DNA of 24,000 nucleotides from Sulfuricella sp. (GTDB lineage Bacteria; Pseudomonadota; Gammaproteobacteria; Burkholderiales; Sulfuricellaceae), in NCBI GenBank assembly GCA_018336195.1, contig JAGXQV010000145.1, forward strand, positions 21,995 through 45,994. The letters run 5' to 3'. The translations under genes and the position numbers were made by a program. The notes under the pieces were generated by a model, which was not told the origin of the DNA, made no database searches, and saw nothing but the letters and a program-made list of their open reading frames with translations. Shown piece by piece: positions 7,201 to 22,361 of the stretch. How positions within the stretch are numbered: position 1 is the first letter of the stretch; each line of letters begins with the position of its first letter.

Positions 7201-8646
7201 CGGGTGCTGGTGGTAGACGACAATGCCTCGGCACGCGAGATCCTGTCCGGCATGGCCCGCAATTTCGGGCTGGAGGTCGACGTGGCCGGGGACGGCCAGC
7301 AAGCCCTGGCGATGATCGGCGAGGCGGAACGGAAAGAACTCCCCTACGATCTGGTGCTGATGGACTGGAAGATGCCGGTGATGGACGGCGTCGAAACCAT
7401 GCTGCGCCTGCAGGAAGAACAACTGGCGCGAGTGCCGGCGGTCATCATGGTGACCGCCTACGGGCGCGAGGAGGCTCTGGGTTCCGCCGAGCAACGCGGG
7501 GTGGAACTCAAGACCGTGCTGACCAAGCCGGTGACCTCCTCGACGCTACTCGAAGCCATCGGCGAGATGCTGGGCAAGGGGCTGGTCGCAGATGATCGCG
7601 TCCACGACAAGGTTGATCGCGGCGCTACCGCCATGGATAGCCTCAAGGGTGCGCGGGTGCTACTGGTCGAGGACAACGATATGAACCAGGAACTGGCCAG
7701 CGAACTGCTTGGCCAGGCCGGCATGGAAGTGGTGATCGCCAACCACGGCCAGGAAGCGCTCGATATCCTGGCACGCGACGCCCGCTTCGACGGGGTGCTG
7801 ATGGATTGTCAGATGCCGGTGATGGACGGCTACACCGCCACCCGCGAAATTCGCAACAACCCGGCCTTCAAGAATTTACCGATTATCGCCATGACCGCCA
7901 ACGCAATGGCCGGCGACAAGGAGAAGGTAATGGAAGCCGGGATGAACGACCACATCGCCAAACCGCTCGACGTCGAGGAAATGTTCGCCACCCTCGCCAA
8001 ATGGATCAAGCCCGCCGGCACAGCCCCCGCCAGCAGCGCGCCTGCCCCGGCGGCGGCGCAGGGCGGCCTGCCCACCCTGCCCGGCATCGACATCAAGGCG
8101 GGACTCGCCACCACCATGAACAACGAAAAGCTCTACACCCGCCTGTTGGTGAAATTCCGCGACGGCCAGAGCAATTTCGCCGCATTGTTCCGCGCCGCCC
8201 AGGCCGATGCCGACCCCACCGCAGCGGCGCGCGCCGCCCATACCCTCAAGGGTACCGCCGGCAACATCGGCGCCAAGGGCGTACAAGCGGCAGCGGGAGA
8301 ACTGGAATCCGCCTGCAATCAAGGTGTTCCCACAGAGCGCATCGACGAACTGCTTAACCATGTCCTCGCCGAGCTGGCGCCGCTTATCGCCGGCTTGGCG
8401 CAAGTTGAAGGAGCGGAACCGCTTGCCGTGGAAGCACCGGGGACAACGTCGGTCGACCGGGCACGCCTCACCGGGTTGCAGGAAAAACTCAAGGCCCTGC
8501 TCGCCGACAGCGACACCGAAGCCAGCGACGTACTCGACGAACTCCGGGAACTCGCCAAGGGCACGCCGCTGGCAGCCAGCCTGAAGAAGGTTGCCGATGC
8601 CATAGCGGCCTACGACTTCGACGCGGCGCTGGAAGCCCTGGGCTGA
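4234..8646 (+). CDS. Hybrid sensor histidine kinase: 4HB_MCP-like N-terminal sensor - TM - HAMP - GAF - coiled coil - PAS - PAS - HisKA - HATPase_c - REC - REC - HPt
   Basis: 1470-aa ORF whose ATG overlaps the upstream stop (ATGA at 4234-4237). [26 protein letters not shown]...[26 protein letters not shown]...[19 protein letters not shown]. Two PAS blocks each ending ...[18 protein letters not shown]-box [21 protein letters not shown]-box [14 protein letters not shown]. Receivers [13 protein letters not shown] and [13 protein letters not shown]. HPt [13 protein letters not shown]. Confidence 0.93.
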
Positions 8647-8663
8647 TCGCCACGCCAGTCCCC

Positions 8664-10112
8664 ATGACACCCGCTCCAGGCAGCCACAGACTCTACGTGG
8701 CGGGCATCGGCGCTTCCGCCGGTGGGCTGGAGGCGATGTTGCCGCTATTCGCCCAGTTGCCTGCGACCGGCCGAATCGCCTACGTGGTCGCCCAGCACAT
8801 GGCGCACGACGCCCACAGCGAGCTGGTGGCCCGCCTGATCGGACGGGAATCCCGGCTGCCCCTGGCCGTCGCCCGCGACGGCGAAACACTCCAGGCCGAC
8901 CGGGTTTACCTGGTTCCCGCCGGCAAGGACGGCGTGGTGCTCGGCAACGCCCTGACCCTGCAAGAACCTTCCCCGCAATTTCTGTCCCACCCCTCGATCA
9001 ATGCGCTGTTCGCCTCGCTCGCCCACACCTACCGGGACAACGCCATCGGCATCGTGCTTTCCGGCACGGGATTCGACGGCGTCGCAGGCTGCCGGGCAAT
9101 CAAGGCTGGCGGCGGACTAACCTTCGCCCAGGATCCCGGCGAGGCCAAGTTCAACGGTATGCCGACGGCGGCAATCGAAGCCCGCCTGATCGACCGGGTA
9201 CTCCCGGTGGCAGCCATCGGCGGCGCGTTGGCGGGCCTCTTTCCGGGAACTGAGGTACCACCGCCGACCGCCGTCGCCAAGCCGCCGGTTGAATCGGCGC
9301 TTCCCGACGCGGCACTCCGCGAACTCGAATACCTAGTGCGCCTGGTGCATGAAGCGACGGGCATCGATTTCTCCGGCTACAAGGAAGAAACCCTGCTGCG
9401 CCGCCTGGAAAAGCGCAAAGCCCTCCTCGGCGTCACCTCGTCGGAAGCCTACCTGGCATTAATCCACCGCGACACTGACGAATTGCACACCCTGCAACAC
9501 CAGTTCCTGGTATCTCTCTCGTCCTTTTTCCGTGACCGCGAAGCGTTCCGCGAGCTGGAGCGCGCCCTGGCCGCCCTGCTCGCCCGGAAAACAGCGGGCG
9601 AGCCGCTGCGCGTCTGGGTGCCGGGATGCGCCTCGGGCGAGGAACCCTACACCCTGGCAATCGTGATCAGCGAATTGCTCGGCAACGACCGCGCGCGCCA
9701 CGCGGCAAACATCATTGCCACCGACCTCAACGACGAAGCGCTGGAAATGGCCCGCACCGGCCTATACCGCCACACGGCTTTCCGCGAAATGGAAGCGTCC
9801 CTGCAGAACCGCTACTTCGTCCCCAAAGGCCAACACTTGGCAGTATCGGAGACGCTGCGGAAAATGGTGTCCTTCGAGAAGCGCGACGTGCTCGACGGGC
9901 CGCCGGCCCAAGACCTCGACCTCATCAGTTGCCGCAACCTGCTGATCTACCTGAAAAGTGCCTTGCAGGACCGGCTGATTGCCGACTTTCACCGCGCCCT
10001 GCGACCCAACGGCCTGCTCTTCATCGGCCAGTCCGAATCGCCGGGACTGACCGGCAACGCGCTATTCGTCCCGGTGGACCGCGACCAGCGCCTGTTTCGC
10101 CGCCGTCCCTGA
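8664..10112 (+). CDS. CheB-CheR fusion protein (protein-glutamate methylesterase domain plus protein-glutamate O-methyltransferase domain), with no receiver domain
   Basis: The N-terminal half carries the CheB catalytic-triad contexts GIGASAGGLEAM (Ser), VVAQHM (His) and SGTGFDG (Asp). The C-terminal half carries the CheR SAM-binding motif VWVPGCASGEEPYTLAI and DLISCRNLLIYL. It starts 17 nt after the kinase stop. Confidence 0.9.
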   Translation: MTPAPGSHRLYVAGIGASAGGLEAMLPLFAQLPATGRIAYVVAQHMAHDAHSELVARLIGRESRLPLAVARDGETLQADRVYLVPAGKDGVVLGNALTLQEPSPQFLSHPSINALFASLAHTYRDNAIGIVLSGTGFDGVAGCRAIKAGGGLTFAQDPGEAKFNGMPTAAIEARLIDRVLPVAAIGGALAGLFPGTEVPPPTAVAKPPVESALPDAALRELEYLVRLVHEATGIDFSGYKEETLLRRLEKRKALLGVTSSEAYLALIHRDTDELHTLQHQFLVSLSSFFRDREAFRELERALAALLARKTAGEPLRVWVPGCASGEEPYTLAIVISELLGNDRARHAANIIATDLNDEALEMARTGLYRHTAFREMEASLQNRYFVPKGQHLAVSETLRKMVSFEKRDVLDGPPAQDLDLISCRNLLIYLKSALQDRLIADFHRALRPNGLLFIGQSESPGLTGNALFVPVDRDQRLFRRRP

Positions 10113-10633
10113 ACATCTCGTCACCCAGCTCGGCCACGACCGCCGAGGCACCTTTCAGACGCCCGGAGTGACCGCCTTGCCGCCGTTGCGCGTTTTTGTT
10201 TGGCAACCCTGACCGGCGTTTCGATCAGGCGCCTCACCAGCCGCCAATCCAAGGACGTGCTGGTCCCGGAGGAAAGCTGCGGATACGCCACGAAACCAAG
10301 AATTTCCGGCTGTTCGCCAAGCTGCTTGGACACGGGCTGATTGGGCGCCATTTTGTGTGAGGCTGAAGACTGCGGAGGGCGCTCAATGAGCGCTATGTGC
10401 CATAAGGAGACGGTCGGGAACCGCGCGATGAATGGCTGATCCTCGGCCGGAGCAGCCGCTCAGGCTAACTGAGATAAACGGCTACTTCCGACCCAAAGCG
10501 GAAATTGCCCACCAGAAGAAGCGGACGTCCAGGAACGTCCAAGCTCTCCGGCGGCAATGGGGCGTAGTGGAATTGCCGTCCGGTGCAGCGCCTTGGCGCC
10601 TTGTTATGCGAGCTAATTGAAGCGCTTTGATGT

Positions 10634-12247
10634 TCACGGCAAGGCTGGCAGGCCCAGTTCATTGAGGAAGGCATTGTGTCTGTCCCGCGCATCCTTGATG
10701 TTCTGCTCCAGGGCGACTAGCTCGGTATTGATTTCCTGCAAATCGACCTCAGCCTCGCCCACCGCCGTGCTGATATAGCGCGAGATATTCAGGTTGAAGT
10801 CGTTCTTCTCGATCTCTGCCATGTCCACCCGTCGGGCGTAGCGGGGCTCTTCCTTTCGGAATTGGTAGGTGCCGATGATCTTGGCGATGTGCTCCTCGCT
10901 CAATTGATTCTGGCGTTTGCCTTTCACGAAGTGCTCGGCGGCATTGATGAAGAGCACGTCGTCTGGCTTCTTGCACTTCTTCAGCACCAGGATACACACC
11001 GGGATGCCGGTGGAGTAGAAGAGATTGGCGGGCAGGCCGATGACGGTGTCGATGTGGCCGTCCTTGAGCAGCTTGGTGCGGATGCGTTCCTCGGCGCCGC
11101 CACGGAACAGCACGCCGTGGGGCAGGATGATCGCCATCACGCCTTCGTCCTTGAGGAAGTGGAAGCCGTGCAACAGGAAGGCGAAGTCGGCGGCGGATTT
11201 GGGGGCGAGGCCGTGGCTTTTGAAACGCACGTCGTCGGCCAGCGCGTCGGTCGGCTCCCAGCGGTAGCTGAACGGTGGATTGGCGACGACGGCGTCGAAG
11301 CTCGGCTTCTTCGCCGGGTTCGGCTCGCGCATCATGTCCCACTCGTTGAGCAGGGTATCGCCGTGGAAGATGTCGAATTCCGTGTCCTTCACCCCGTGCA
11401 GCAGCATGTTCATGCGGGCCAGGTTGTAGGTGGTGATGTTCTTTTCCTGGCCGAAGATTTTGCCGATGGCGCCGCCCGCCTTTGCCACCTTCTTGCGCAC
11501 GTTGAGCAGCAGCGAACCGGAACCGCAGGCGAAGTCCAGCACGCTCTCCAGCCGCTTTTTGGTCCCGGTTTTCGGTTCCTGGCTGTCCAGCGTGACGATG
11601 GCCGAAAGGATGTCGGAAATCTGCTGCGGGGTGTAGAACTCGCCCGCCTTCTTGCCCGACCCGGCGGCAAACTGGCCGATCAGGTATTCATAGGCATCGC
11701 CCAGCGCGTCGATGTTCGTGGAGAACTCCGCCAGCCCTTCGGCAATTTTCTGGATGATGGTGCACAGCTTGGCGTTCCGGTCCTCATACTTCTTGCCCAG
11801 CTTGGGAGAACTCAGGTCGATCTCGGAGAACAGGCCCTGAAAGGTGCTCTCAAAGGATTCCGTTTCGATGTATTTGAAGCCCGCTTGCAGCGTGTTGAGC
11901 AGCTCGCCGTTCTGGGTGCGCGCCAGGTTGGCGATGCTGTTCCACAGGTGCGCGGGCTGGATGACGTAATGCACCTTGCGCCGCATCTGCTTCTCGAACG
12001 CCGGGATGTCGTCCACATTGTTCGCATACCACAGCGCCAGCGGCACCTTGCGGGTGTCGCCGCCTACATCCGGGTAATCCCGCCCCAGCTCCTTCTTCGC
12101 CGCCGTCTCGTAGTTATCCGAGAGGTAGCGCAGGAAGAGGAAGGACAGCATGTAGTCGCGAAAGTCGTCCGCATCCATCGCCCCGCGCAGTTGGTCGGCG
12201 ATGCTCCAGAGGGTGTTGCCCAGTTGTTTTTGGTTGGTTTCGGTCAT
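10634..12247 (-). CDS. hsdM: Type I restriction-modification system, DNA methyltransferase subunit M (N6-adenine)
   Basis: 537 aa. AdoMet motif VLDFACGSGSLLLNV and catalytic motif VVANPPFSYRW. The N-terminal HsdM_N-like segment LWSIADQLRGAMDADDFRDYMLSFLFLRYLSDNYE resembles, from memory, the EcoR124I/type IC style. Confidence 0.95.
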   Translation of the reverse strand: MTETNQKQLGNTLWSIADQLRGAMDADDFRDYMLSFLFLRYLSDNYETAAKKELGRDYPDVGGDTRKVPLALWYANNVDDIPAFEKQMRRKVHYVIQPAHLWNSIANLARTQNGELLNTLQAGFKYIETESFESTFQGLFSEIDLSSPKLGKKYEDRNAKLCTIIQKIAEGLAEFSTNIDALGDAYEYLIGQFAAGSGKKAGEFYTPQQISDILSAIVTLDSQEPKTGTKKRLESVLDFACGSGSLLLNVRKKVAKAGGAIGKIFGQEKNITTYNLARMNMLLHGVKDTEFDIFHGDTLLNEWDMMREPNPAKKPSFDAVVANPPFSYRWEPTDALADDVRFKSHGLAPKSAADFAFLLHGFHFLKDEGVMAIILPHGVLFRGGAEERIRTKLLKDGHIDTVIGLPANLFYSTGIPVCILVLKKCKKPDDVLFINAAEHFVKGKRQNQLSEEHIAKIIGTYQFRKEEPRYARRVDMAEIEKNDFNLNISRYISTAVGEAEVDLQEINTELVALEQNIKDARDRHNAFLNELGLPALP

Positions 12248-12250
12248 GGT

Positions 12251-13147
12251 TTATGGCTTGCCCTCTTGCGGTGGGGGTAACGTTTTGGTGCGCTCTGCCA
12301 GCATCTTATCCTCGGATTTCACTCGGCGTTCCAGCTTCTTCAGGTCTTCTTCGGCAGCCAGTTTTTCGGGCTGAATACCGCGCTGCCCTAGCATGTCGCG
12401 CACGCTTTCGTTGTTCTTAACGTGTTCGTGCGTAATCGCGGGTTCGCCGCGCAAATTGTCTTGTCGCACGTTGTGATTCGTCATTTCGGTGGCGAGATTT
12501 TTGGCGGCAATGGTCAGCGTAGGCAAAAAATCAGCCAGCGGACGGTTGGCTACAATGCCGTATTTATTTTTCATGGCTTGCGTGGTGTTTCCACCAAACA
12601 GTGCCTGATCCCCCCGTGATCGAATCCGGCCAAAACCAGCATCGTCCACACCGCGCTCGTAAATGTTTTGCGAGAGTGCCTTTTCCGACTCCTTGAGCCG
12701 GTCACGTGCTTCCATGCGCGCTTGCAGGCGCATGCGGTCTTCAATTAGCTCTTGCTTGCGGGTTTGCACAGCAAAGTAGCTTTGCGCAAAGGCAACCTCA
12801 GGCTTGCGCGGATCGCCGTTCTGGGCAATCAGGTAACAGGCATAGCGGGTGAGCATGAAATCATCAATTTCCCGCTCCCCGCCCTTGCCATGGACGATCA
12901 ATTTCGTGACGCCACGAAAATGATCTGAAACCGCATGTCCAGAGGCTTCGCATGCCTGCATAGCGCGCTGGATGGCGGTTTGAAAGTTCTCCCAGCGCGC
13001 ATAGCCCAAGGGAACTTGCAAATCGCGGGCAAACCAGAATTCGACGCCCTCGGCATCGGCACGCTGTGCACCAGCCTCCAGACTACTTTGCAAGGCTTTG
13101 AGTGGCTCATCCATGGTGTTTCCTCCGCTGGTTTTGTACTTGTTCAT
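12251..13147 (-). CDS. dinD: DNA damage-inducible protein D (DinD) family protein. The start is uncertain (ATG 13147, or ATG 13114 = MDEPLK...).
   Basis: 298-aa ORF. EFWFARDLQVPLGYARWENFQTAIQRAMQACEASGHAVSDHF...LTRYACYLIAQNGDPRKPEVAFAQSYFAVQTRKQE matches my recollection of the conserved core of E. coli DinD (SRYACYL..QNGDP.KP....Q.YFA.QTR). The stop lies 3 nt before the hsdM start. Confidence 0.82.
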   Translation of the reverse strand: MNKYKTSGGNTMDEPLKALQSSLEAGAQRADAEGVEFWFARDLQVPLGYARWENFQTAIQRAMQACEASGHAVSDHFRGVTKLIVHGKGGEREIDDFMLTRYACYLIAQNGDPRKPEVAFAQSYFAVQTRKQELIEDRMRLQARMEARDRLKESEKALSQNIYERGVDDAGFGRIRSRGDQALFGGNTTQAMKNKYGIVANRPLADFLPTLTIAAKNLATEMTNHNVRQDNLRGEPAITHEHVKNNESVRDMLGQRGIQPEKLAAEEDLKKLERRVKSEDKMLAERTKTLPPPQEGKP

Positions 13148-13358
13148 GCATTTGAACTGTCAAGGATTCCTTGACAGTTGCCGCCGAGTCCAACTCCCCG
13201 TCCTCGAAGATGTTCTTCAGGTGCAGGGAGATGTTCTGCTTCGTGGCATCGAAGAGTTCCGCCATCTCCAACTGCGTCAGCCAGACGGTCTGCTCCTGCG
13301 CCCGCAGCTTGATCTGGCTGCGGCCGTCTTCGGTTGTGTAGAGAATCAGGTCGTTCAT
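13107..13358 (-). pseudogene. Truncated N-terminal remnant of a RhuM-family (virulence protein RhuM-like) gene
   Basis: The first ~68 aa, MNDLILYTTEDGRSQIKLRAQEQTVWLTQLEMAELFDATKQNISLHLKNIFEDGELDSAATVKESLTVQ, follow the typical RhuM N-terminus (..LY.tedG...WLtq.qmaeLF....qNIs.HlkNIf..gEL....tvKe.LtVq). The ORF then diverges (MHEQVQNQRRKHHG*) and stops at 83 aa. Full-length family members are roughly 300+ aa, and the expected ...EG.R.V.R....YNLD...VGYRV core is absent. Its 3' end overlaps the dinD start region. Confidence 0.7.
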
Positions 13359-13363
13359 GGTGT

Positions 13364-14575
13364 CTACGCTGGTGCCCGGGGGGATACAGGTGTGGTTGCT
13401 AATTCTGCCACTGCAGGGCGGAATGAATAGCGGTCCAGGAAAACGTTGAGAATCTCGCGGAACATCTTCTTGTCAGTGGAGGTGATCGATTCAGACTCGA
13501 AGACCGAATACTTGGCATGACTTCTGACATTCAAAAAACGTGCGTAGAGGGCCTTATTGGCATGCCCTTCAAAACATGTAGAGATGTGTTGTCGGCCAAA
13601 GAATATGGCGGTCTTTTCGAGAATGCTACGGAGCGAGTTGAAATGATATTGTGAAATCTTTCCAGATTTCGCCACCGCACGCAGCTCGTCCAAGGCCGCG
13701 ACATGATGCAGAAAGGGAGACTCGCCGGTATCTTCGAGAGTGTATGTCTGCGCCTCATTCAGCCGGTGCAGAATGTATGCCTTCTTCCTAATATTGTCTT
13801 TGCCCTCAGGGGGTCTCTTCCCTGTAAGTTCATTGAACATCACATTGAAGAACAAACCATGGTGCGTAGAAATTACGACCTTCAGCTTATTGTTTTCATT
13901 TTTCAGCAATCCACCTAGGCTAGCCGCAACGGCAATGGTGTTGTGCTCATCCAGTGACGAGATGGGGTCATCGATATAAACATACTTTACCCAATCGTAA
14001 GGCGCCCCTTTTTCAGCTTCGATGGCGAGTTGGAGTATTGACAAGAAGAAGCACCAGATAAAAATGTTTTCCTCGCCTCTGGAGATTTTGATGTCCTCAA
14101 GCCGCCTGCGATTTCCGGCCACCGTCACGTCGCGATGAAAGCGTATCTCGGCCGCAGCGTAGTCAATTCTGAAATCAAAGTCAGCGTGCTGATGAAGAAG
14201 TGGGCGAATGAGGTCTTCGATGCCCATTCCGTCAAGGCCATCAAAGAAGCGAGACTGAGCCTTAAACTTAATTTTGCGTTCCCGGTCCTCATTGAGGTCA
14301 TTGTCCCAATCAAAGAGGTCTTCAGTAAAGGCATTGAAGTAAAGAGTGTCCCGTTTCTCCTCCTTCTTGCCGAGATCTTTAAATTCCATCGACAGGCGAG
14401 TTTTCCCCACGCCATTGTGTGCGAACACCAGAACGAAATCATTTCCTGAAACCGGTGTAGTGCCTTTCCGATTGGCCGTCTTCTTGCGTTTGTTAACTCC
14501 CTTTAAATCCCTGCGGAGCTTTTTCGCCAGTGACTCCAGCGATCTGAATTTGTTGATGGTTGTTATCTTGCTCAT
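13364..14575 (-). CDS. PrrC-like ABC/AAA_13-type ATPase, a candidate anticodon nuclease
   Basis: 403 aa. Walker A FAHNGVGKTRLS. ABC-signature-like ISRGEENIF. Walker B/D-loop YVYIDDPISSLDEHN. H-switch VVISTHHG. The C-terminal region has R316-x3-E320 (LRSILEK) and H353 (NVRSHAKY). This spacing mirrors the R320/E324/H356 catalytic residues I recall for E. coli PrrC (396 aa). The gene is embedded in a type IC-like R-M locus directly after hsdS (ATGA overlap at 14572-14575). That it is a real CDS is near certain. The confidence given here is for the functional call. Confidence 0.62.
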   Translation of the reverse strand: MSKITTINKFRSLESLAKKLRRDLKGVNKRKKTANRKGTTPVSGNDFVLVFAHNGVGKTRLSMEFKDLGKKEEKRDTLYFNAFTEDLFDWDNDLNEDRERKIKFKAQSRFFDGLDGMGIEDLIRPLLHQHADFDFRIDYAAAEIRFHRDVTVAGNRRRLEDIKISRGEENIFIWCFFLSILQLAIEAEKGAPYDWVKYVYIDDPISSLDEHNTIAVAASLGGLLKNENNKLKVVISTHHGLFFNVMFNELTGKRPPEGKDNIRKKAYILHRLNEAQTYTLEDTGESPFLHHVAALDELRAVAKSGKISQYHFNSLRSILEKTAIFFGRQHISTCFEGHANKALYARFLNVRSHAKYSVFESESITSTDKKMFREILNVFLDRYSFRPAVAELATTPVSPRAPA

Positions 14576-15804
14576 GATTGGATGGCATCAGGGGATGGAA
14601 ATAGCTGCTGCATCAGACCCTCCTTGTGAGACTTGAGGGTATCGAGCTTCTCGATTTCAGCGGCGATCGTGTTGTCGAGGCTCGTGAGGCAGTCTGCGAT
14701 CTTCCTCTGTTCGGCCAATGTCGGGAAAGCGCTTTGCCAGCTCTCGATTGCCCCTTTAGTGATGTGCATGATGCCAAGCCCATTCGTAGTCTTGGCCTTC
14801 ATGTTTTCAGTTTCATTTTCGAGGGTGATGAAGAGGAACTGCTTGTCGATTCCACGCTGCTCAATCACTTTCCAAATGTGGTAGTGATAAATGGATTTTT
14901 CGCCGCGCCAGATGCGGGGTCCAAAGGACGCGGACCACGCATAAAGCAGGTCGCCCTTCTCACAATACTTCGTCTCATCCAACTCAAGGTCTGAGTAATA
15001 CCAAGCGTTGCTGGTGAAGAAGTTCCCAACACGCAGAACTGGGTATTTCCCAGATTCGAGCAGTTCTTCCTGTTTGTAGGCTCGGCCGTTGTAGAAAATC
15101 GCGGCTTGGCCCAAGGCCATCCTTTTCCACTCCCCGGCGTTTTGGAATTCTGGGAAGCGGAGGAGGGGTTGGGTTTCGCGTTCGCGGGGGAAAAGCTGTT
15201 GCATCAGCCCTTTTTTATGGGTCTTGAGCGCGTCCACTTTCCGCGCTTGCGCGGCCATCAGTTCGTCCACTGAACTCAGGCACTCGGCGATTTTTTGTTG
15301 TTCGGCGGGGGATGGAAGCGCGACTGAGAATGAGAGGAAGGTTTCAGCATGGATGCGTCTTGCCTTTCTACTTCCATCGGCAGTTTCACCCAACCTTTCG
15401 TAAAAATCTCTGCGCTTGACGTATTCCAAAAGGAACACGGGGTTGAGCCCGCCAGTGATGTCAAAGCATGGCAAATCGACCGTTGACTCAAAGTTGTCCA
15501 AGCTGGGGGGAATGATGCCGAAGGCTTGGTTCAGAAAATCAAGTTTGCTGTAAATAAACTGTCCGGTTTTGCGCCGGAAATACTGAGTGTTGATGCTGCC
15601 TTGAATGGCATCGTTCTTCTCGAAAACTCCGTTTCCCCAGAGCTTAACGGTAATCTTCTTTGCGACGTTGCCCTTACTTCCTGGTAGTCGGCTTTCACTC
15701 AGAAATTCGCCAAGCTGTCTTTCTTTCCACCCCTCTGCCCCCCGAAACTCAGGAAACCTCCGCTTCGGCACCAGCGCGGACTTTTTGCTGCGCGCTCCGC
15801 TCAT
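14572..15804 (-). CDS. hsdS: Type I restriction-modification system, specificity subunit S
   Basis: 410 aa with two variable target-recognition regions. They are separated and followed by repeated conserved regions AEQQKIAECLSSVDELMAAQARKVDALKTHKKGLMQQLFP and AEQRKIADCLTSLDNTIAAEIEKLDTLKSHKEGLMQQLFP. RFPEF motifs precede each TRD. ATGA overlaps occur at both ends. Confidence 0.93.
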   Translation of the reverse strand: MSGARSKKSALVPKRRFPEFRGAEGWKERQLGEFLSESRLPGSKGNVAKKITVKLWGNGVFEKNDAIQGSINTQYFRRKTGQFIYSKLDFLNQAFGIIPPSLDNFESTVDLPCFDITGGLNPVFLLEYVKRRDFYERLGETADGSRKARRIHAETFLSFSVALPSPAEQQKIAECLSSVDELMAAQARKVDALKTHKKGLMQQLFPRERETQPLLRFPEFQNAGEWKRMALGQAAIFYNGRAYKQEELLESGKYPVLRVGNFFTSNAWYYSDLELDETKYCEKGDLLYAWSASFGPRIWRGEKSIYHYHIWKVIEQRGIDKQFLFITLENETENMKAKTTNGLGIMHITKGAIESWQSAFPTLAEQRKIADCLTSLDNTIAAEIEKLDTLKSHKEGLMQQLFPSPDAIQS

Positions 15805-16811
15805 GCCGCTCCTCCCAATTCCTGCGCCAGCAGTTCATGCAGTTTGGCCTGGATGAGTTTTTTGTCGGGCAATTGCAATTGGTATTGGGCGATCAGCGTG
15901 GGCGAGAGGTTGCGCGACAGGGCGTATTCCACCACTTCCTGGTCGTGGTCACAGCATAGCAGAACGCCGATGCTGGGGTTCTCGTGCGCTTTCTTGATGT
16001 CGCGGTCGAGCGCTTCAAGATAGAAATTCAGTTGCCCCATGTGCTCGGGGCTGAATTTGCCGATTTTGAGTTCAAAAGCCACCAGCGCAGAAAGGCCGCG
16101 ATGGTAAAAGAGCAGGTCAATGAAAAAATCCTGATTGCCGACTTGCAGGCGGAATTTTTCGCCCATGAAGATGAAATCCGCGCCCAGTTCCAGAATGAAG
16201 GCCTTCATGTTCGCCACCAGGGCGCGTTGCAGGTCGCCTTCACTGTGAGATTCGGGCAAGCCGAGAAACTCAAGGACGTAACTGTCTTTGAAGGCGCCGG
16301 CGATCAGCGGGTTCAATTCTCTCGCCACCGGTGAGAGTTTTGCGCCGGTCACACTGCGCTCAAAATGGGTAGCGTCAATTTGACGCTCCAGTTCCCGCTT
16401 GCCCAAACCCTCGGCCAAGGTCAATTGCAGGTAGTAAGCGCGTTCTTCCGCCGACTTGCAGCGCGAAAAGATGATGGTGTTGTGCGTCCAGGGCAATGCT
16501 CGCGCCAGTGCCGAGCGTTTTTCATCGCCTCGATAGGTCTCGTAAAACTGCTTCATGCGCCACAGGTTCTTGTCGCTGAAACCTTTGGCCTCCGGGGCGT
16601 GTTGGGCGATGTAGCGTGCCAGTTCGGACACCACGCCTTTTCCCCAGACTTCGCGTTGTACTTTTTCGCTGATGGTTTGGCCGATGTGCCAATACAACTC
16701 CATCAGGGCCGTATTGGCCTGTGCAAAGATTTTTTGCCGCGCTTGCTGAATCTGCCCTAGCAATTCGCGGAAGGCGTTTTCGGTGGGGTCGGTGTTGTTC
16801 AGCTTATTCAT
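15801..16811 (-). CDS. YhcG/DUF1016-family PD-(D/E)xK nuclease-like protein
   Basis: The N-terminal helical region LMELYWHIGQTISEKV....WGKGVVSELARYI and LPWTHNTIIFSRCKSAEERAYYLQ is typical of the DUF1016 N-domain. The C-terminal nuclease core FFIDLLFYHRGLSALVAFELKIGKF carries an intact D...E-x-K. I chose the start at ATG 16811 (MNKLNN...), which overlaps the hsdR stop by 8 nt. The track ORF extends to 16856. Confidence 0.82.
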   Translation of the reverse strand: MNKLNNTDPTENAFRELLGQIQQARQKIFAQANTALMELYWHIGQTISEKVQREVWGKGVVSELARYIAQHAPEAKGFSDKNLWRMKQFYETYRGDEKRSALARALPWTHNTIIFSRCKSAEERAYYLQLTLAEGLGKRELERQIDATHFERSVTGAKLSPVARELNPLIAGAFKDSYVLEFLGLPESHSEGDLQRALVANMKAFILELGADFIFMGEKFRLQVGNQDFFIDLLFYHRGLSALVAFELKIGKFSPEHMGQLNFYLEALDRDIKKAHENPSIGVLLCCDHDQEVVEYALSRNLSPTLIAQYQLQLPDKKLIQAKLHELLAQELGGAA

Positions 16812-19800
16812 ACGCGCTGAGTCCTGAGATGTCGCGGCCATCGGCACGTTTGACAAGGTAGGGGGCGCAATCCTGCATCAGGGCGATTTCCTTGTGGGTG
16901 CGCTCTTTCCAGCCGAGGTCATACGGGGCGTAGAGGTCGCTGAGTTGCTCGCCATCGAAAATCATGCGGTCGAGAATGCCGTCCACAAAGCTTTGCAGGG
17001 CGGCGGTGGCGAGGCCGTGTTTCGCAGAGATGGCGGCGAGTTCCTGGGCGTTCTTTTCAGCCTTGAAGCGGGTGTAGCCCTCGCGGATGGCGGTCTCGGA
17101 GAGACCCTCGCCGGCCTTGAGGGTGCCGATGTATTCGGCGATGGCGTCGCGCTCGTTCATGAACTTGGCATCGGCGCCGATGAGGCCGATGAGTTCCTCG
17201 CGAGTCATCTTGGACTTGCCCGGCCCTTTCTGCGAGAACCTGGCGATAAGGCCCATGATGTAGTCGTAGTCGATGACGGCGGAGGCGAAGAGGACGAACT
17301 CGAAGTCGAGCTGGTCGATTTGTTCTGCGGGATCGTCGGCGCCCGGCCCATCACCCTCCTTGCCGCTCTTGACCCGCTGCTCTCTGAGCTTTTTGGCGGT
17401 TTCCAGATACTGGCCCTTGAAGCCGCGCAGGTTGTCCTCGGGCAGCACCTGCTCGATGCTGGCTTTGTTTTCCCCGGTGAGGTCGGTGTATTGGTCGAGT
17501 TGGGTCTTGAGGCGCTGGACTTCCTTGAAGTGGCTGATGAAGGCAGCGCGGGCTGCGTCGCCCTTCAAATTGGCGACGGCGGAGGGCGTACAGCTTAGGC
17601 CCTGAGACTTCATGAAGTCGTCGAGCTTCTGTACGGCGGCTTCCAGCTTCTTTATCACCACCGGCGCCTTGTCTACCAGCCAGATTTCCCGCGCCTGCTC
17701 GCCGGTCTTCTCACCGGAAAAAAGGGCGATGGCGGCATCGACTGAATCTTGTTGTTGGCGGAAGTCGAGGATGTTGCCGTAGGGCTTGGTGCCGTTGAGC
17801 ACGCGATTGGTGCGCGAGAAGGCCTGGATCAAGCCGTGGTGCTTGAGGTTCTTGTCCACGTAGAGCGTATTCAGGAACTTGGAATCGAAGCCGGTGAGCA
17901 GCATGTCCACGACGATGGTGATGTCGATCTTTTGCGCGGCGGGGTAGTCGGCATTCGGCCACTGCTGGTCTTTGATGCGCTTTTGCACATCCTGGTAGTA
18001 GAGGTCGAACTCGCTAAGGCGGTGATTGGTGCCGTAGCGGGCGTTATAGTCGGCGAGGATGACTTCAAGCGCTTGCTTCTTTTTCTCCGGCTCGACCTTG
18101 TTGTCCTCCTGCTCCTGCGGGAGGTCACTGGAAAGCTGCTTGATGTCCTTCTTGGCTTCTTCGTTCTCCGCGAGCTCAGCGGGCGGTGAGAAGACGCAGG
18201 CGATGTTCAGTGGCTTGTAGTCGGGGTCGGCGGTCTGTTTATCAGCCTGCAAGGTCTTGAACAGCGCGTGGTATTCGATGGCGTCGTTGATGGACGCGGT
18301 GGCGAGGATGGCGTTGAAGCGGCGTCCGCCGGTGGCGGCATCGTGCTTTGTCAGAATTTCGCCAACGATGGCCGCTTTGGAAAAGGGGGGCTTTGGTTCA
18401 TCGGCTTTGGGCGCCCCCTTGCCAACTGGCTTCGCCTCTTTCTCGTTCTTGGGCTTCGGCTTGAAGTAGTCGATGTGAAAGCGCAGGACATTGCCATCCT
18501 CGATGGCGTGGGTGATGGTGTAGGCGTGGAGCTGCTTCTGGAAGAGGTCTTCCGTGGTGCGCATGGAGGCCTGGGTATCCTCGATCTTCTGCAAAGTGGC
18601 ATTGGCCTCAAAGATGGGGGTGCCGGTGAAGCCGAAGAGTTGCGCCTGGGGGAAGAAGTCTTTGATGGCCTTGTGGTTCTCGCCGAACTGCGAGCGGTGG
18701 CACTCGTCGAAGATGAAGACGATGCGTTTGTCCTTCAGCGCTTCGAGTTGCTCCTTGTAGGTGGCCTGGCCGTTTTTGCTGCGCTGCTTGTTGCGCTTGC
18801 TGGACTCAATCAGCGCGAGGCCGAGCTTCTGGATGGTGGTGACGATGACCTTGTCGGCGTAGTCCTCGGAAAGCAGGCGGCGCACGAGGGCGGCGGTGTT
18901 GGTGTTTTCTTCGACGCAGCCTTCCTGGAACTTGTTGAATTCCTCCCGCGTCTGGCGGTCGAGGTCTTTGCGATCCACGACGAAAACGCACTTGTGGATA
19001 TGGTCGTTTTCCTTGAGCAGGGTGGACGCCTTGAAGGAGGTGAGCGTTTTTCCAGAACCTGTGGTGTGCCAGATGTAGCCATTGCCGTTGTCTTCGGCTA
19101 TGCACTTCACCATGTGCTGCACGGCATAGACCTGGTAGGGCCGCATAATCATGAGCTTTTGCTCCCCGGCGAGCAGCACCATGTAGCGGCTGATGATCCG
19201 CCCGAGGTCGCACTTTTTCAGGAAGCGCTCGGCGAACTCGTCGAGTTGGGTGATCTTGCGGTTGTCCTCGTCGGCGAACTCATAGATGGGCAGGAAGCGC
19301 TCGTCGGCATTGAAGGCGAAGTGGCGGGCGTTGTTGTTGGCGAAGTAGTAGCTGCGGTCGCGGTTGCTGACGATGAAAAGCTGCATGAAGCAGAGCAGCG
19401 TCTTGGTGTAGCCGTTGCCGGGGTCGTGCTTGTATTCGACGATCTGCTCCATGGCCCGGCGCGGATTGACGCCGAGAGTCTTCAACTCGATCTGCACCAC
19501 CGGCACGCCGTTGATGAGTAGAATCACGTCGTAACGGTGGTGGCTGTTGTCGGTGTTAATGCGGAGCTGGTTGATGACCTCGAAGTGGTTTTTGCACCAG
19601 TCCTTGAGATTGACCAGGGTGTAGTTCAGCGGCGTGTCATCGTCGCGGGTGAAGGCATTGATGCTGCGCAGGGTCTTGGCAGCGGCGAAGACATCCGGGG
19701 TGACGATTTCATCCAGCAGCCTGGCGAACTCGCTATCCGTGAGCCGGACACGATTCAGGGCCTCGAATTTGTCGCGGAAGTTTTTCTCTAACGCAGCGCG

Positions 19801-19881
19801 GTCAGTGATATCCGAGCGGTATTCGTATTTGAGCCCCGTCAGTTTATCGATGAAGCTTTGTTCGATTTGTTGTTCAATCAT
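16804..19881 (-). CDS. hsdR: Type I restriction enzyme, endonuclease/translocase subunit R (type IC-like)
   Basis: I chose the start at ATG 19881 (MIEQQIEQSFIDKL...). The 34-aa upstream extension in the track looks non-coding. Nuclease motif RYDVILLINGVPVVQIELKT. Helicase motif I IWHTTGSGKTLTS and motif II VFIFDECHRSQFG. QLFIVSNRDRSYYFANN resembles my recollection of the EcoR124I HsdR region QLFVISNGTDTRYFANT. Confidence 0.95.
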   Translation of the reverse strand: MIEQQIEQSFIDKLTGLKYEYRSDITDRAALEKNFRDKFEALNRVRLTDSEFARLLDEIVTPDVFAAAKTLRSINAFTRDDDTPLNYTLVNLKDWCKNHFEVINQLRINTDNSHHRYDVILLINGVPVVQIELKTLGVNPRRAMEQIVEYKHDPGNGYTKTLLCFMQLFIVSNRDRSYYFANNNARHFAFNADERFLPIYEFADEDNRKITQLDEFAERFLKKCDLGRIISRYMVLLAGEQKLMIMRPYQVYAVQHMVKCIAEDNGNGYIWHTTGSGKTLTSFKASTLLKENDHIHKCVFVVDRKDLDRQTREEFNKFQEGCVEENTNTAALVRRLLSEDYADKVIVTTIQKLGLALIESSKRNKQRSKNGQATYKEQLEALKDKRIVFIFDECHRSQFGENHKAIKDFFPQAQLFGFTGTPIFEANATLQKIEDTQASMRTTEDLFQKQLHAYTITHAIEDGNVLRFHIDYFKPKPKNEKEAKPVGKGAPKADEPKPPFSKAAIVGEILTKHDAATGGRRFNAILATASINDAIEYHALFKTLQADKQTADPDYKPLNIACVFSPPAELAENEEAKKDIKQLSSDLPQEQEDNKVEPEKKKQALEVILADYNARYGTNHRLSEFDLYYQDVQKRIKDQQWPNADYPAAQKIDITIVVDMLLTGFDSKFLNTLYVDKNLKHHGLIQAFSRTNRVLNGTKPYGNILDFRQQQDSVDAAIALFSGEKTGEQAREIWLVDKAPVVIKKLEAAVQKLDDFMKSQGLSCTPSAVANLKGDAARAAFISHFKEVQRLKTQLDQYTDLTGENKASIEQVLPEDNLRGFKGQYLETAKKLREQRVKSGKEGDGPGADDPAEQIDQLDFEFVLFASAVIDYDYIMGLIARFSQKGPGKSKMTREELIGLIGADAKFMNERDAIAEYIGTLKAGEGLSETAIREGYTRFKAEKNAQELAAISAKHGLATAALQSFVDGILDRMIFDGEQLSDLYAPYDLGWKERTHKEIALMQDCAPYLVKRADGRDISGLSAYE

Positions 19882-20228
19882 TGTTGGAGCTCTGCAATCT
19901 TGGTACCGCCCTTGGCAACACATGACACCGGTAAATTTCCACAAATAGCCGCCTCTTACAATCATTGAGCATTCTGAATGCATTTCACTTCAGGATGTTC
20001 ACTGCTAACACCGTTTGGCCGCATAACCACGAAGCACAGCGGACGACGGATGGCGAAGCTGGCCGACGGGTCCGGTGGAGTAGATTGTTGGGACAGCTTG
20101 CCATTGGTACTGGCGCCGGTCACGCAACCGCCATTCCAGTGAATGTCTGCTCTAGGAAAATCGGTAAATGACGGCTTATGGCCGACAGCAGTCATGCTAT
20201 CACATTGGCATGACCGTCCGCTCCGGCC

Positions 20229-22079: not shown

Positions 22080-22361
22080 GTCACTTCTCCCTGTTTAATA
22101 TCATCCATTATCGGCGCCGCCACCGTGGAAAAGCAACAAAGCTTTACCACTGTAAGTTGGCAGCAAAAGTGGGATAGGACCATGCAATATTTTTTCTTCG
22201 CGCTCACCAAAATCATGCGGAAACGCGATCTGTTCCTCATTACAACTCACTTAAACTCACAAAAAGGTATGCCGAATGAATAACTCCTTGATTTGACCTT
22301 TACCGGCATGATTCATGACGCTATGCTTTGTGGACATCCGCAAGGAACATGGAGAAACACA
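22080..22361. promoter_or_regulatory. AT-richer divergent intergenic region between the REC-REC-HK gene and glgP. It presumably carries both promoters, and the glgP RBS is at 22351-22354.
   Basis: 282 bp with no convincing ORF, flanked by divergently oriented genes. GGAG lies 7 nt upstream of the glgP ATG. I could not place a convincing -35/-10 pair with proper spacing. Confidence 0.3.

What the first reader, a model, noticed from the sequence alone, without database searches (positions are those of the whole stretch)
13364..14575. PrrC-like candidate anticodon nuclease with conserved R-x3-E...H spacing in an atypical locus position
The 403-aa protein has ABC-ATPase motifs: FAHNGVGKT, ISRGEEN, YIDDPISSLDEHN, STHH. 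Its C-terminal region places R316, E320 and H353 within a few residues of the R320/E324/H356 ACNase residues I recall for E. coli PrrC (396 aa). It is translationally coupled to hsdS of a type IC-like system, and type IC is the family that masks PrrC in E. coli. Three features differ from the classical locus. It sits upstream of dinD/hsdM rather than of hsdR. It has a Lys/Arg-rich ~45-aa N-terminal leader (KKLRRDLKGVNKRKKTANRKG) before the Walker A. It is the most AT-rich gene of the islet (about 45% in a sampled line), which suggests separate and recent acquisition.
Basis: partly seen in the sequence, partly recalled or inferred. Interest (0 to 1): 0.7.

Follow-up and report, generated by a model that had tools for sequence, protein, structure and literature searches.

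The report
Ordinary PrrC anticodon nuclease in restriction operon
The gene encodes a typical member of the known PrrC family of tRNA-cutting "backup" nucleases that sit inside type I restriction-modification operons, and its position, low GC content and basic N-terminus are normal for its branch of the family.

Summary
It is a PrrC-family protein: the PADLOC PrrC model scores E=2e-127. BLASTP against a 396-aa EcoPrrC-type protein, recovered here and matching all 30 published EcoPrrC residue positions checked, gives 33% identity (E=3e-54). That alignment pairs R316/E320/H353 with R320/E324/H356 and also pairs R346, N349 and the PrrC box. The three "atypical" features do not hold up. The order hsdR-hsdS-prrC-hsdM is found, with or without embedded genes, in every one of 83 related loci long enough to show it (80 species across many phyla, plus three E. 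coli variants). Only the distant classical clade is hsdM-hsdS-prrC-hsdR. prrC has lower GC than both hsdR and hsdM in 73 of 76 loci. Among near relatives, PrrC identity tracks HsdM and HsdR identity, so recent separate acquisition is not supported. The basic leader marks a large subclade, and EcoPrrC also has a Lys-rich leader. The best reading is a latent anticodon nuclease held in check by its restriction-modification partner and released when a phage blocks restriction. The target tRNA is unknown. This is a new member of a known kind, of low interest. One minor point stands out: two discrete PrrC lineages sit on one conserved R-M backbone.

The parts
13364..14575 (-). prrC homologue, 403 aa: N-terminal ABC-type NTPase domain plus C-terminal anticodon-nuclease (HEPN-type) domain
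   Evidence: ORF. PADLOC PrrC E=2e-127, covering residues 12-389. Pfam AAA_13 E=2.9e-17. 33% identity, E=3e-54, to an EcoPrrC-type protein. AF2 model has pLDDT 75 and its ABC head matches PtuA and Rad50.
14438..14524 (-). Lys/Arg-rich part of the N-terminal leader (residues 18-46), containing a 16-18 aa subclade-specific insert
   Evidence: 14 K/R in the 49-residue leader. The insert is present in 13 of 86 sampled homologues and absent from the short-leader class. EcoPrrC-type proteins have 7-9 K/R in a 37-40 aa leader. AF2 confidence here is low, pLDDT about 49.
14399..14425 (-). Walker A / P-loop, FAHNGVGKT (K58, T59 = EcoPrrC K46, T47)
   Evidence: K58 and T59 are invariant in 86 of 86.
14297..14341 (-). 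PrrC box, YFNAFTEDLFDWDND (residues 79-93), the family-specific motif
   Evidence: 13 of 15 residues identical to YYNAFTEDLFYWDND at 82-96 of the EcoPrrC-type protein. The motif is defined in PMC3025547 and PMC1484252.
14066..14086 (-). ABC signature (C-loop), ISRGEEN (K163, R166 = EcoPrrC K168, K171)
13940..13978 (-). Walker B and D-loop, YIDDPISSLDEHN (D202, D203, D209 = EcoPrrC D215, D216, D222)
13859..13870 (-). H-loop, STHH (T237, H238 = EcoPrrC T250, H251)
13613..13630 (-). R316-S-I-L-E320-K321: nuclease residues aligned with EcoPrrC R320-N-L-Y-E324-K325
   Evidence: BLASTP alignment. R316 and E320 are invariant in 86 of 86. They lie on predicted helix 309-325.
13517..13540 (-). R346-F-L-N349-V-R-S-H353: aligned with EcoPrrC R349...N352...H356 (the HEPN-type R-x6-H element)
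   Evidence: R346 and H353 are conserved in 85 of 86. The HEPN assignment of the PrrC nuclease domain comes from PMC3710099.
14572..15804 (-). hsdS (specificity subunit); its stop overlaps the prrC start by 4 nt
   Evidence: Pfam Methylase_S, two stretches, E=3.1e-30. Junction sequence.
16804..19983 (-). hsdR (restriction subunit); the likely true start is M35, at about 19881
   Evidence: Pfam HSDR_N, SWI2_SNF2, T1R_D3-like and EcoR124_C. 31% identity over full length to EcoprrI-like HsdR. Homologues align from residue 32-37 onward.
10634..12247 (-). hsdM (methyltransferase subunit)
   Evidence: Pfam HsdM_N and N6_Mtase, E=5.9e-104. 36% identity to EcoprrI-like HsdM and 77% to the E. coli R-S-C-M type HsdM.
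15801..16811 (-). Embedded yhcG/DUF1016-like PD-(D/E)xK nuclease gene between hsdR and hsdS. The start shown is the ATG overlapping the hsdR stop; the mechanical ORF begins at the TTG at 16856.
   Evidence: Pfam DUF1016_N and YhcG_C. PADLOC PDC-S02 E=1.4e-127. Junction.
13107..13358 (-). Embedded 83-aa ORF, 5 nt downstream of prrC
   Evidence: PADLOC PDC-S05 E=3.8e-37. No significant Pfam hit. Conserved downstream of prrC in L006, L009 and L015 (59-96% identity). Called as a gene on the Logan contig.
12251..13114 (-). Embedded dinD homologue (Bro-N domain), 287 aa from the ATG that overlaps the orf83 stop
   Evidence: NCBIfam NF008573 DinD E=1e-110. Pfam Bro-N. PDC-S13 E=7.8e-116. A 287-aa gene call on an independent contig.

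Best explanation
The gene encodes a PrrC-family anticodon nuclease embedded in, and co-transcribed with, a type I restriction-modification operon of the architecture hsdR-(yhcG)-hsdS-prrC-(orf83-dinD)-hsdM.

Shown here: family membership; intact NTPase motifs and nuclease residues; tight coupling to hsdS; conservation of the S-prrC-M arrangement across many phyla.

Inferred by analogy with E. coli PrrC/EcoprrI: the protein is made with the R-M subunits and is held latent by physical association with the Hsd complex. When a phage anti-restriction factor disables the R-M enzyme, the ABC-type N-domain (GTP hydrolysis and dTTP binding in EcoPrrC) switches on the C-terminal metal-independent RNase. 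R316, E320, H353 and R346 then cleave a tRNA anticodon loop, leaving 2',3'-cyclic phosphate and 5'-OH ends. Translation stops and the infection aborts.

The target tRNA is not predictable. The segment equivalent to the EcoPrrC tRNA-Lys recognition stretch (284-294) is only partly conserved: GES--PFLHH against GDSNKSFSYH. This places the protein in the known 'His instead of Tyr294' subset, which was predicted in 2006 to have other specificities.
For: PADLOC PrrC profile E=2e-127, 423 bits, nearly full length. Pfam AAA_13 is above its gathering score.

A 396-aa E. coli plasmid protein annotated 'anticodon nuclease' sits in an hsdM-hsdS-X-hsdR locus. It carries the expected residue at all 30 EcoPrrC positions checked against the literature. 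BLASTP to it gives 33% identity, E=3e-54, over residues 19-357.

Of 27 functionally probed EcoPrrC residues mapped onto this protein, 24 are identical. K171 is R here, a substitution tolerated in EcoPrrC. Y294 is H here, the known alternative.

The PrrC box is 13/15 identical. The catalytic residues are invariant in 85-86 of 86 homologues.

The protein is 403 aa with no coiled-coil or zinc-hook insert. The AF2 model shows an ABC head plus an all-helical C-domain, with R316/E320 on one helix and the R346..H353 element at the end of another.

The gene is always next to hsdS within a type I operon in 83 related loci. Close homologues are named 'anticodon nuclease' by NCBI (P0049, 86% identity).

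Against: There is no experimental evidence for this clade. EcoPrrC N321, strictly essential in the yeast toxicity assay, is Ser here. It is Ser in 66 of 86 clade members, so this is a clade trait rather than a lesion.

Two PrrC homologues, from N. meningitidis and X. campestris, were non-toxic in yeast. Activity therefore cannot be assumed from motifs.

Overall identity to EcoPrrC is only 33%, and the partner R-M is only 31-36% identical to EcoprrI. Whether silencing by the Hsd complex, or GTP and dTTP control, carries over is pure inference.

The C-domain alone hits no Pfam HEPN model. No solved PrrC structure exists for comparison.
Confidence: 0.8

Rival explanations
1. This is a PrrC-like gene that is atypically placed and was acquired separately and recently, as an AT-rich insert into a pre-existing type IC system, so it might be regulated differently from classical PrrC.
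For: It is the lowest-GC gene of the operon. The order differs from the classical M-S-prrC-R. At deeper divergence PrrC is incongruent with the backbone: loci with HsdM 73-82% identical carry PrrC that is either 68-75% or only 45-52% identical. Some exchange of the central hsdS-prrC segment has therefore occurred in the family's history.
Against: R-S-prrC-M is the universal order in this clade, across 80 species and 3 E. coli variants. prrC has lower GC than hsdR and hsdM in 73 of 76 loci, and hsdS shows the same deficit. In the nearest relatives PrrC identity (94, 84, 83%) matches HsdM (93, 85, 85%) and HsdR (86, 77, 77%). The exact protein is found with the same neighbours on independent contigs.
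Confidence: 0.08
2. This is an RloC-like or other AAA_13 ABC-HEPN nuclease that acts autonomously, for example by sensing DNA damage, rather than as a guardian coupled to the R-M system.
For: The only Pfam hit is the generic AAA_13 model, which also covers RloC. JGI labels several homologues 'wobble nucleotide-excising tRNase'. There are weak PADLOC hits to PDC-S06 and LmuB.
Against: RloC proteins are 658-897 aa with a coiled-coil and CXXC zinc-hook insert and are rarely linked to R-M systems. This protein is 403 aa, has no such insert, carries the PrrC-specific box, scores 423 bits on the PrrC profile against 51 bits or less on the others, and is always embedded next to hsdS.
Confidence: 0.03
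3. This is a PrrC homologue that has lost RNase function or never had it. It would act only as an ABC-ATPase accessory or regulator of the R-M complex, or be an inert passenger.
For: The N321 equivalent is Ser. The Nme and Xca PrrC homologues were non-toxic in yeast. No biochemical data exist for this clade.
Against: All catalytic-triad and NTPase residues are intact here and are invariant across 86 homologues spanning many phyla. That argues for purifying selection on the nuclease site. The ORF is intact and tightly coupled to its neighbours.
Confidence: 0.08

Closest known systems
E. coli PrrC (EcoPrrC) with the type IC EcoprrI system (prr locus; Levitz 1990; Blanga-Kanfi 2006, PMC1484252; Meineke 2010, PMC3025547)
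   Same: Two-domain layout: ABC-type NTPase plus C-terminal anticodon nuclease. Similar size (403 against 396 aa). Walker A and B, signature and H-loop motifs, PrrC box, R-x3-E-K and R..N..H nuclease residues. A Lys-rich leader before Walker A. The gene lies immediately downstream of hsdS inside a type I operon, and the HsdR is of the EcoR124-like kind.
   Different: Only 33% identical. The operon order is R-S-C-M rather than M-S-C-R. The partner HsdM and HsdR are only 36% and 31% identical to the EcoprrI-type proteins. N321 is Ser, Y294 is His, and the tRNA-Lys recognition stretch is only partly conserved. The leader is 12 aa longer and richer in Arg. The segment between Walker A and the PrrC box is 15 aa shorter.
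The 'AAA family ATPase' / 'anticodon nuclease' genes between hsdS and hsdM in E. coli and Klebsiella chromosomes and plasmids (e.g. WP_015056406, WP_097455398)
   Same: The same R-S-C-M architecture with 4-nt overlaps on both sides. HsdM is 74-77% and HsdR about 68-69% identical to the window's. All catalytic residues are shared.
   Different: PrrC is only 47-52% identical. These proteins lack the 16-18 aa basic insert in the leader, and these loci have no yhcG, orf83 or dinD insertions.
RloC (Davidov and Kaufmann 2008, PMC2610378)
   Same: ABC ATPase motifs and the R-x3-E...H nuclease triad. Both fall under Pfam AAA_13.
   Different: RloC is twice the size, has a Rad50-like coiled-coil and zinc hook, excises the wobble nucleotide, and is rarely linked to R-M systems. 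None of these features applies here.
rlo/mlo embedded ORFs of Campylobacter jejuni hsd loci (Miller 2005, as summarised in PMC5183652) and RM-embedded 'PDC' genes (Payne 2024 preprint, 10.1101/2024.01.29.577857)
   Same: An hsdR-[ORFs]-hsdS-[ORFs]-hsdM layout with variable embedded defence-type genes. The yhcG-like, 83-aa and dinD genes match PADLOC families PDC-S02, PDC-S05 and PDC-S13.
   Different: The particular combination R-Y-S-C-h-D-M was seen only in this window and its exact-match contig among the loci sampled.

Membership tests
PrrC anticodon nuclease family | N-terminal ABC-type NTPase with Walker A (AxxGxGKT), signature/C-loop, Walker B (DD), D-loop and H-loop (TH) | tested here: met
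   AHNGVGKT59, ISRGEEN, YIDDPISSLD and STHH align with EcoPrrC AFNGTGKT47, LSKGEES, FIDDPVSSLD and TTHS. They are invariant in 86 homologues. The AF2 head domain matches ABC/SMC-type ATPases such as PtuA and Rad50.
PrrC anticodon nuclease family | PrrC box (EcoPrrC 82-YYNAFxEDLFYWDND-96), reported as unique to the family | tested here: met
   YFNAFTEDLFDWDND at 79-93 is 13/15 identical to the EcoPrrC-type sequence. The essential residues E88, W93, D94 and N95 correspond to E85, W90, D91 and N92.
PrrC anticodon nuclease family | C-terminal nuclease residues R320-x3-E324 ... H356 (plus R349 and N352) | tested here: met
   BLASTP pairs R316, E320, K321, R346, N349 and H353 with R320, E324, K325, R349, N352 and H356. 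Conserved in 85-86 of 86, except N349, which is N or Q. Exception: N321 is S317.
PrrC anticodon nuclease family | Significant match to a family profile | tested here: met
   PADLOC PDLC02360 PrrC, E=2e-127, residues 12-389 against profile positions 20-350 of 372. NCBIfam has no model that hits.
PrrC anticodon nuclease family | Size about 341-416 aa, without the coiled-coil/zinc-hook insert (the distinction from RloC) | tested here: met
   403 aa; no CXXC motif; no long helical insert in the AF2 model.
PrrC anticodon nuclease family | Genetic linkage to a type I R-M locus related to EcoprrI (type IC) | tested here: met
   Embedded in a complete hsdR/S/M operon with a 4-nt overlap with hsdS. HsdR carries EcoR124_C. 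HsdM and HsdR are much nearer to the EcoprrI-type than to EcoKI. Strict type IC membership is a separate test, listed below.
PrrC anticodon nuclease family | tRNA anticodon-loop cleavage; latency imposed by the Hsd complex; activation by an anti-restriction factor with GTP and dTTP | not testable with these tools
   Needs expression, tRNA-seq or northern blots, and co-purification.
EcoPrrC-like tRNA-Lys-specific subset | Conserved recognition stretch 284-KYGDSNKSFSY-294, including D287, S288, F292 and Y294 | tested here: not met
   The aligned segment is DTGES--PFLH. G, S and F are kept, D287 is E, the NK pair is deleted and Y294 is H. It belongs to the 'His' subset noted in PMC1484252.
HEPN superfamily RNase domain | All-alpha bundle carrying an R-x4-6-H motif | tested here: inconclusive
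   R346-x6-H353 fits the motif, and the AF2 C-domain is all-helical. However, no Pfam HEPN model hits the isolated C-domain, and the fold search returned only ABC-head matches. The assignment rests on PMC3710099.
Type IC restriction-modification family (EcoR124I / EcoprrI), strict sense | High HsdM/HsdR sequence similarity within the family and hsdM-hsdS-hsdR gene order. The within-family similarity criterion is from general knowledge of type I families and was not tested against a reference set here. | tested here: not met
   36% (HsdM) and 31% (HsdR) identity to the EcoprrI-type proteins, and the order here is R-S-M. This is better described as a distinct, IC-related family whose HsdM is 65-93% identical across many phyla.
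RloC | 658-897 aa with a Rad50-like coiled-coil and CXXC zinc hook splitting the ATPase domain | tested here: not met

The most novel reading that the evidence does not exclude
Within one conserved R-S-C-M type I backbone (HsdM 73% identical or more), PrrC falls into two discrete lineages, with nothing observed between 52% and 68% identity to the window's PrrC. The window belongs to the lineage with an Arg/Lys-rich, 16-18 aa longer N-terminal leader. The central hsdS-prrC segment may be exchanged as a cassette, as hsdS target-recognition domains are. The two lineages may differ in tRNA target or in the anti-restriction trigger they sense. The basic leader might act as a nucleic-acid or Hsd-complex tether. 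None of this appears in the papers read here.
Probability: 0.25. Interest if true: 0.4.

Novelty: new member of a known kind. Interest (0 to 1): 0.2.

Why it matters
It matters little beyond annotation. The gene should be labelled as a PrrC-family anticodon nuclease rather than 'AAA family ATPase', and the operon as a type I R-M system carrying four embedded accessory defence-type genes. The comparison does make one point that the papers read here do not state. Most PrrC-like genes sampled here sit in an hsdR-hsdS-prrC-hsdM operon that is conserved across phyla, not in the textbook hsdM-hsdS-prrC-hsdR locus, and this clade has had no biochemical characterisation. A representative such as this one would be a reasonable choice for testing whether restriction-coupled silencing and tRNA targeting generalise beyond EcoPrrC.

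Tried and rejected
(1) A sequence search of PDB found no solved relative. Foldseek of the AF2 model found only generic ABC/SMC heads such as PtuA, the retron ATPase and Rad50. No structural test of the nuclease domain was therefore possible.

(2) blastn of the gene, and of an E. coli homologue, against 5,426 E. coli genomes found only R-S-C-M type homologues. It never found the classical prrC, which is too diverged at the DNA level. The classical type was finally recovered by tblastn against plasmids.

(3) Pfam on the isolated C-domain at E up to 10 gave no HEPN hit. NCBIfam has no model for the protein.

(4) The promoter and terminator scan was uninformative. It found 1 promoter-like site against 3.4 expected. 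The only notable feature is a weak terminator-like hairpin about 100 nt downstream of hsdM, at 10522-10541 on the minus strand.

(5) I looked for island boundaries. There is no tRNA gene and no integrase. The flanks encode two-component and chemotaxis signalling proteins.

(6) I considered RloC, LmuB and PDC-S06 and rejected them on size, architecture and score.

(7) I considered that low GC marks recent insertion and rejected it using the family-wide GC comparison and the identity tracking among near relatives.
Full report
**Observation.** The ORF is real. It runs from ATG to TAG at 13364-14575 on the minus strand and encodes 403 aa. The basic stretch is at 18-38, and residues 316, 320 and 353 are R, E and H.

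The start codon overlaps the hsdS stop in an ATGA (hsdS 14572-15804). The whole minus-strand block reads hsdR (16804-19983, probable start M35), a yhcG/DUF1016-like nuclease gene (15801-16811), hsdS, this gene, an 83-aa ORF (13107-13358), a dinD homologue (12251-13114) and hsdM (10634-12247). Every junction is an overlap or a gap of 5 nt or less.

The gene is the lowest-GC member of the block, at 48.3% against 52-60% for the others. The flank upstream of the block is 64.6% GC.

**What it is.** The PADLOC PrrC profile matches almost the whole protein (E=2e-127, 423 bits). The next-best defence profiles score 51 bits or less. Pfam gives only the generic AAA_13 model (E=2.9e-17), and NCBIfam gives nothing.

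To test the residue correspondence directly I needed an EcoPrrC sequence. blastn searches of E. coli genomes found only a different kind of homologue. A tblastn search of plasmids found an E. coli P1-like plasmid with an hsdM-hsdS-'anticodon nuclease'-hsdR locus. Its 396-aa product has the expected residue at all 30 EcoPrrC positions I took from the literature. These include K46, T47, E88, W93, D94, N95, K168, K171, D215, D216, D222, K245, T250, H251, N257, E262, F292, Y294, H295, H315, R320, N321, E324, K325, R349, N352, H356 and C386. It also contains the KYGDSNKSFSY stretch at 284-294.

BLASTP of the window protein against it gives 33% identity, E=3e-54, over residues 19-357. The alignment pairs R316 with R320, E320 with E324, K321 with K325, R346 with R349, N349 with N352, and H353 with H356. 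It also pairs all the NTPase motifs. The PrrC box aligns as YFNAFTEDLFDWDND against YYNAFTEDLFYWDND.

There are three departures:
- S317 replaces N321, which was strictly essential in the yeast assay (PMC3025547).
- H290 replaces Y294. This is the alternative already noted in 2006 (PMC1484252).
- R166 replaces K171, a change tolerated in EcoPrrC.

In an 86-sequence alignment of homologues, R316, E320, H291 and H311 are invariant. R346 and H353 are conserved in 85 of 86. Position 317 is Ser in 66 of 86.

An AlphaFold2 model (pLDDT 75, pTM 0.68) shows an ABC head followed by an all-helical C-domain. R316 and E320 lie on helix 309-325, and the R346..H353 element lies at the end of helix 341-351. 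Foldseek finds only ABC/SMC heads (PtuA, retron ATPase, Rad50). No solved PrrC exists by sequence or by fold.

**The three 'atypical' features.**

*(i) Locus position.* A scan of one genome per species found at least 576 species with a relative. Fifty are R-S-C-M. All the others are the same order truncated by a contig end or carrying extra yhcG-like, 83-aa-ORF-like or dinD-like genes in varying slots. None is M-S-C-R.

Three different E. coli variants are also R-S-C-M, with 4-nt overlaps on both sides of the PrrC homologue. Of the 5,426 E. coli genomes, 83 carry a homologue of one of these variants (L002) or of its relatives, and every listed hit lies at or beside an hsdM gene.

This sample was selected by similarity to the query, so it describes the query's own clade. 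The classical clade (L004, L005) is M-S-C-R. In both clades prrC directly follows hsdS.

An hsdR-[ORFs]-hsdS-[ORFs]-hsdM layout with embedded genes was described for Campylobacter in 2005 (as summarised in PMC5183652). [quoted passage not shown]

*(ii) Leader.* The 16-18 aa basic insert (GV.KRKKTA.RKGT...G) and a Walker lysine at about residue 58 define a subclade. It comprises 13 of the 86 sequences sampled and all 120 listed database clusters at 66% identity or more. The short-leader class has 3-8 K/R in its leader, against 13-15 here. EcoPrrC-type proteins also have a Lys-rich leader of 37-40 aa with 7-9 K/R, which BLASTP aligns with this one. The feature is real but is not a departure from the family. 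AF2 confidence there is low.

*(iii) AT-richness.* prrC has lower GC than both hsdR and hsdM in 73 of 76 loci, by 4.8 points on average, and hsdS shows the same deficit. In the nearest relatives, the identities of PrrC, HsdM and HsdR move together: 94/93/86% in L006, 84/85/77% in L027 and 83/85/77% in L015. The exact protein occurs with the same neighbours on independent public contigs. Low GC is a family trait, not a mark of recent insertion.

At greater distance PrrC is not congruent with the backbone. Loci whose HsdM is 73-82% identical to the window's carry a PrrC that is either 68-75% or 45-52% identical, with nothing in between. For example, L013 is M 81 / R 78 / C 68, while L050 is M 82 / R 76 / C 49. 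The divergence is concentrated in the leader, the 101-160 insert, the 251-282 linker and the last helix. This suggests that the central hsdS-prrC segment has been exchanged between otherwise conserved operons at some time in the family's history.

**The restriction system.** HsdR has the HSDR_N, SWI2/SNF2, T1R_D3 and EcoR124_C domains. HsdM and HsdR are 36% and 31% identical over full length to the EcoprrI-type proteins. They are only 25% identical over partial alignments to type IA EcoKI. 'Type IC-like' is fair. However, given this low identity and a different gene order, it is not type IC in the strict sense. It is a distinct and widespread family, with HsdM 65-93% identical across phyla.

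**Mechanism.** By analogy with EcoPrrC, the protein is most likely a latent anticodon nuclease held inactive by the Hsd complex with which it is co-translated. It would be released when a phage factor blocks restriction. The NTPase domain would gate the HEPN-type RNase (PMC3710099).

Only family membership, motif integrity and linkage are shown here. Silencing, the trigger, nucleotide control and the target are inferred. The partly divergent recognition stretch (DTGES--PFLH against KYGDSNKSFSY) means the target tRNA cannot be named. Two PrrC homologues were non-toxic in yeast, so activity must be tested.

**Verdict.** The identification and the residue alignment are correct. The claimed peculiarities are normal for this branch of the family. 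This is a new member of a known kind, with the best database match at 92-94% identity and the exact protein already present in public assemblies. Interest is low. The only mildly novel thread is the two-lineage structure of PrrC on a shared R-M backbone, together with the uncharacterised basic leader.

Noticed in passing
window 15801-16811 (-): A yhcG/DUF1016-type PD-(D/E)xK nuclease gene is embedded between hsdR and hsdS (Pfam DUF1016_N and YhcG_C; PADLOC PDC-S02, E=1.4e-127). Its ATG overlaps the hsdR stop by 8 nt. In related loci a yhcG-like gene that is only about 30% identical sits either here or between prrC and hsdM.
   Followed up: partly
window 13107-13358 (-): An 83-aa ORF lies 5 nt after prrC. 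It matches many PADLOC PDC-S05 profiles (best E=3.8e-37) but has no significant Pfam or PHROG hit. A similar ORF follows prrC in L006 (96% identity), L015 (87%) and L009 (59%). Its function is unknown.
   Followed up: partly
window 12251-13114 (-): A full-length DinD homologue (NCBIfam NF008573, E=1e-110; Bro-N domain; PDC-S13) is embedded between the 83-aa ORF and hsdM. Among the close relatives only this locus has it in that slot. In other loci a dinD-like gene sits between hsdR and hsdS.
   Followed up: partly
L006-L085 compared with the window: PrrC identity to the window is bimodal (68-94% or 45-52%), while HsdM and HsdR vary continuously (65-93% and 59-86%). PrrC also evolves faster than the flanking enzymes: means of 48.5% against 74% and 66% in the distant set.
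   Followed up: partly
L003:4801-7716 and L001:1534-5318: E. coli variants of the same operon carry other embedded genes. In L003 a 476-aa hypothetical protein lies between hsdS and the PrrC homologue, which is annotated with an N-terminal extension of about 100 aa. In L001 a TrlF-family ATPase and an RNA-binding-domain protein lie between hsdR and hsdS.
   Followed up: no
window 1-10112 and 20325-22079: The R-M block (GC 0.48-0.60) lies between genes for signalling proteins in DNA of about 65% GC on the low-coordinate side. These are hybrid histidine kinases, a PocR/GAF/Cache sensor protein, a CheB-CheR fusion (8664-10112, +) and a response-regulator/histidine-kinase hybrid (20325-22079, -). 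There is no tRNA gene and no integrase in the window.
   Followed up: partly
window 22001-22500: There is a local GC dip to 0.488. The overlapping ORFs (22257-22997 on the minus strand, 22328-23584 on the plus strand) have no Pfam hit.
   Followed up: no
window 19882-19983 (-): The mechanical hsdR ORF starts 34 codons upstream of where homologues begin to align (residues 32-37). The real start is probably M35, at about 19881.
   Followed up: partly
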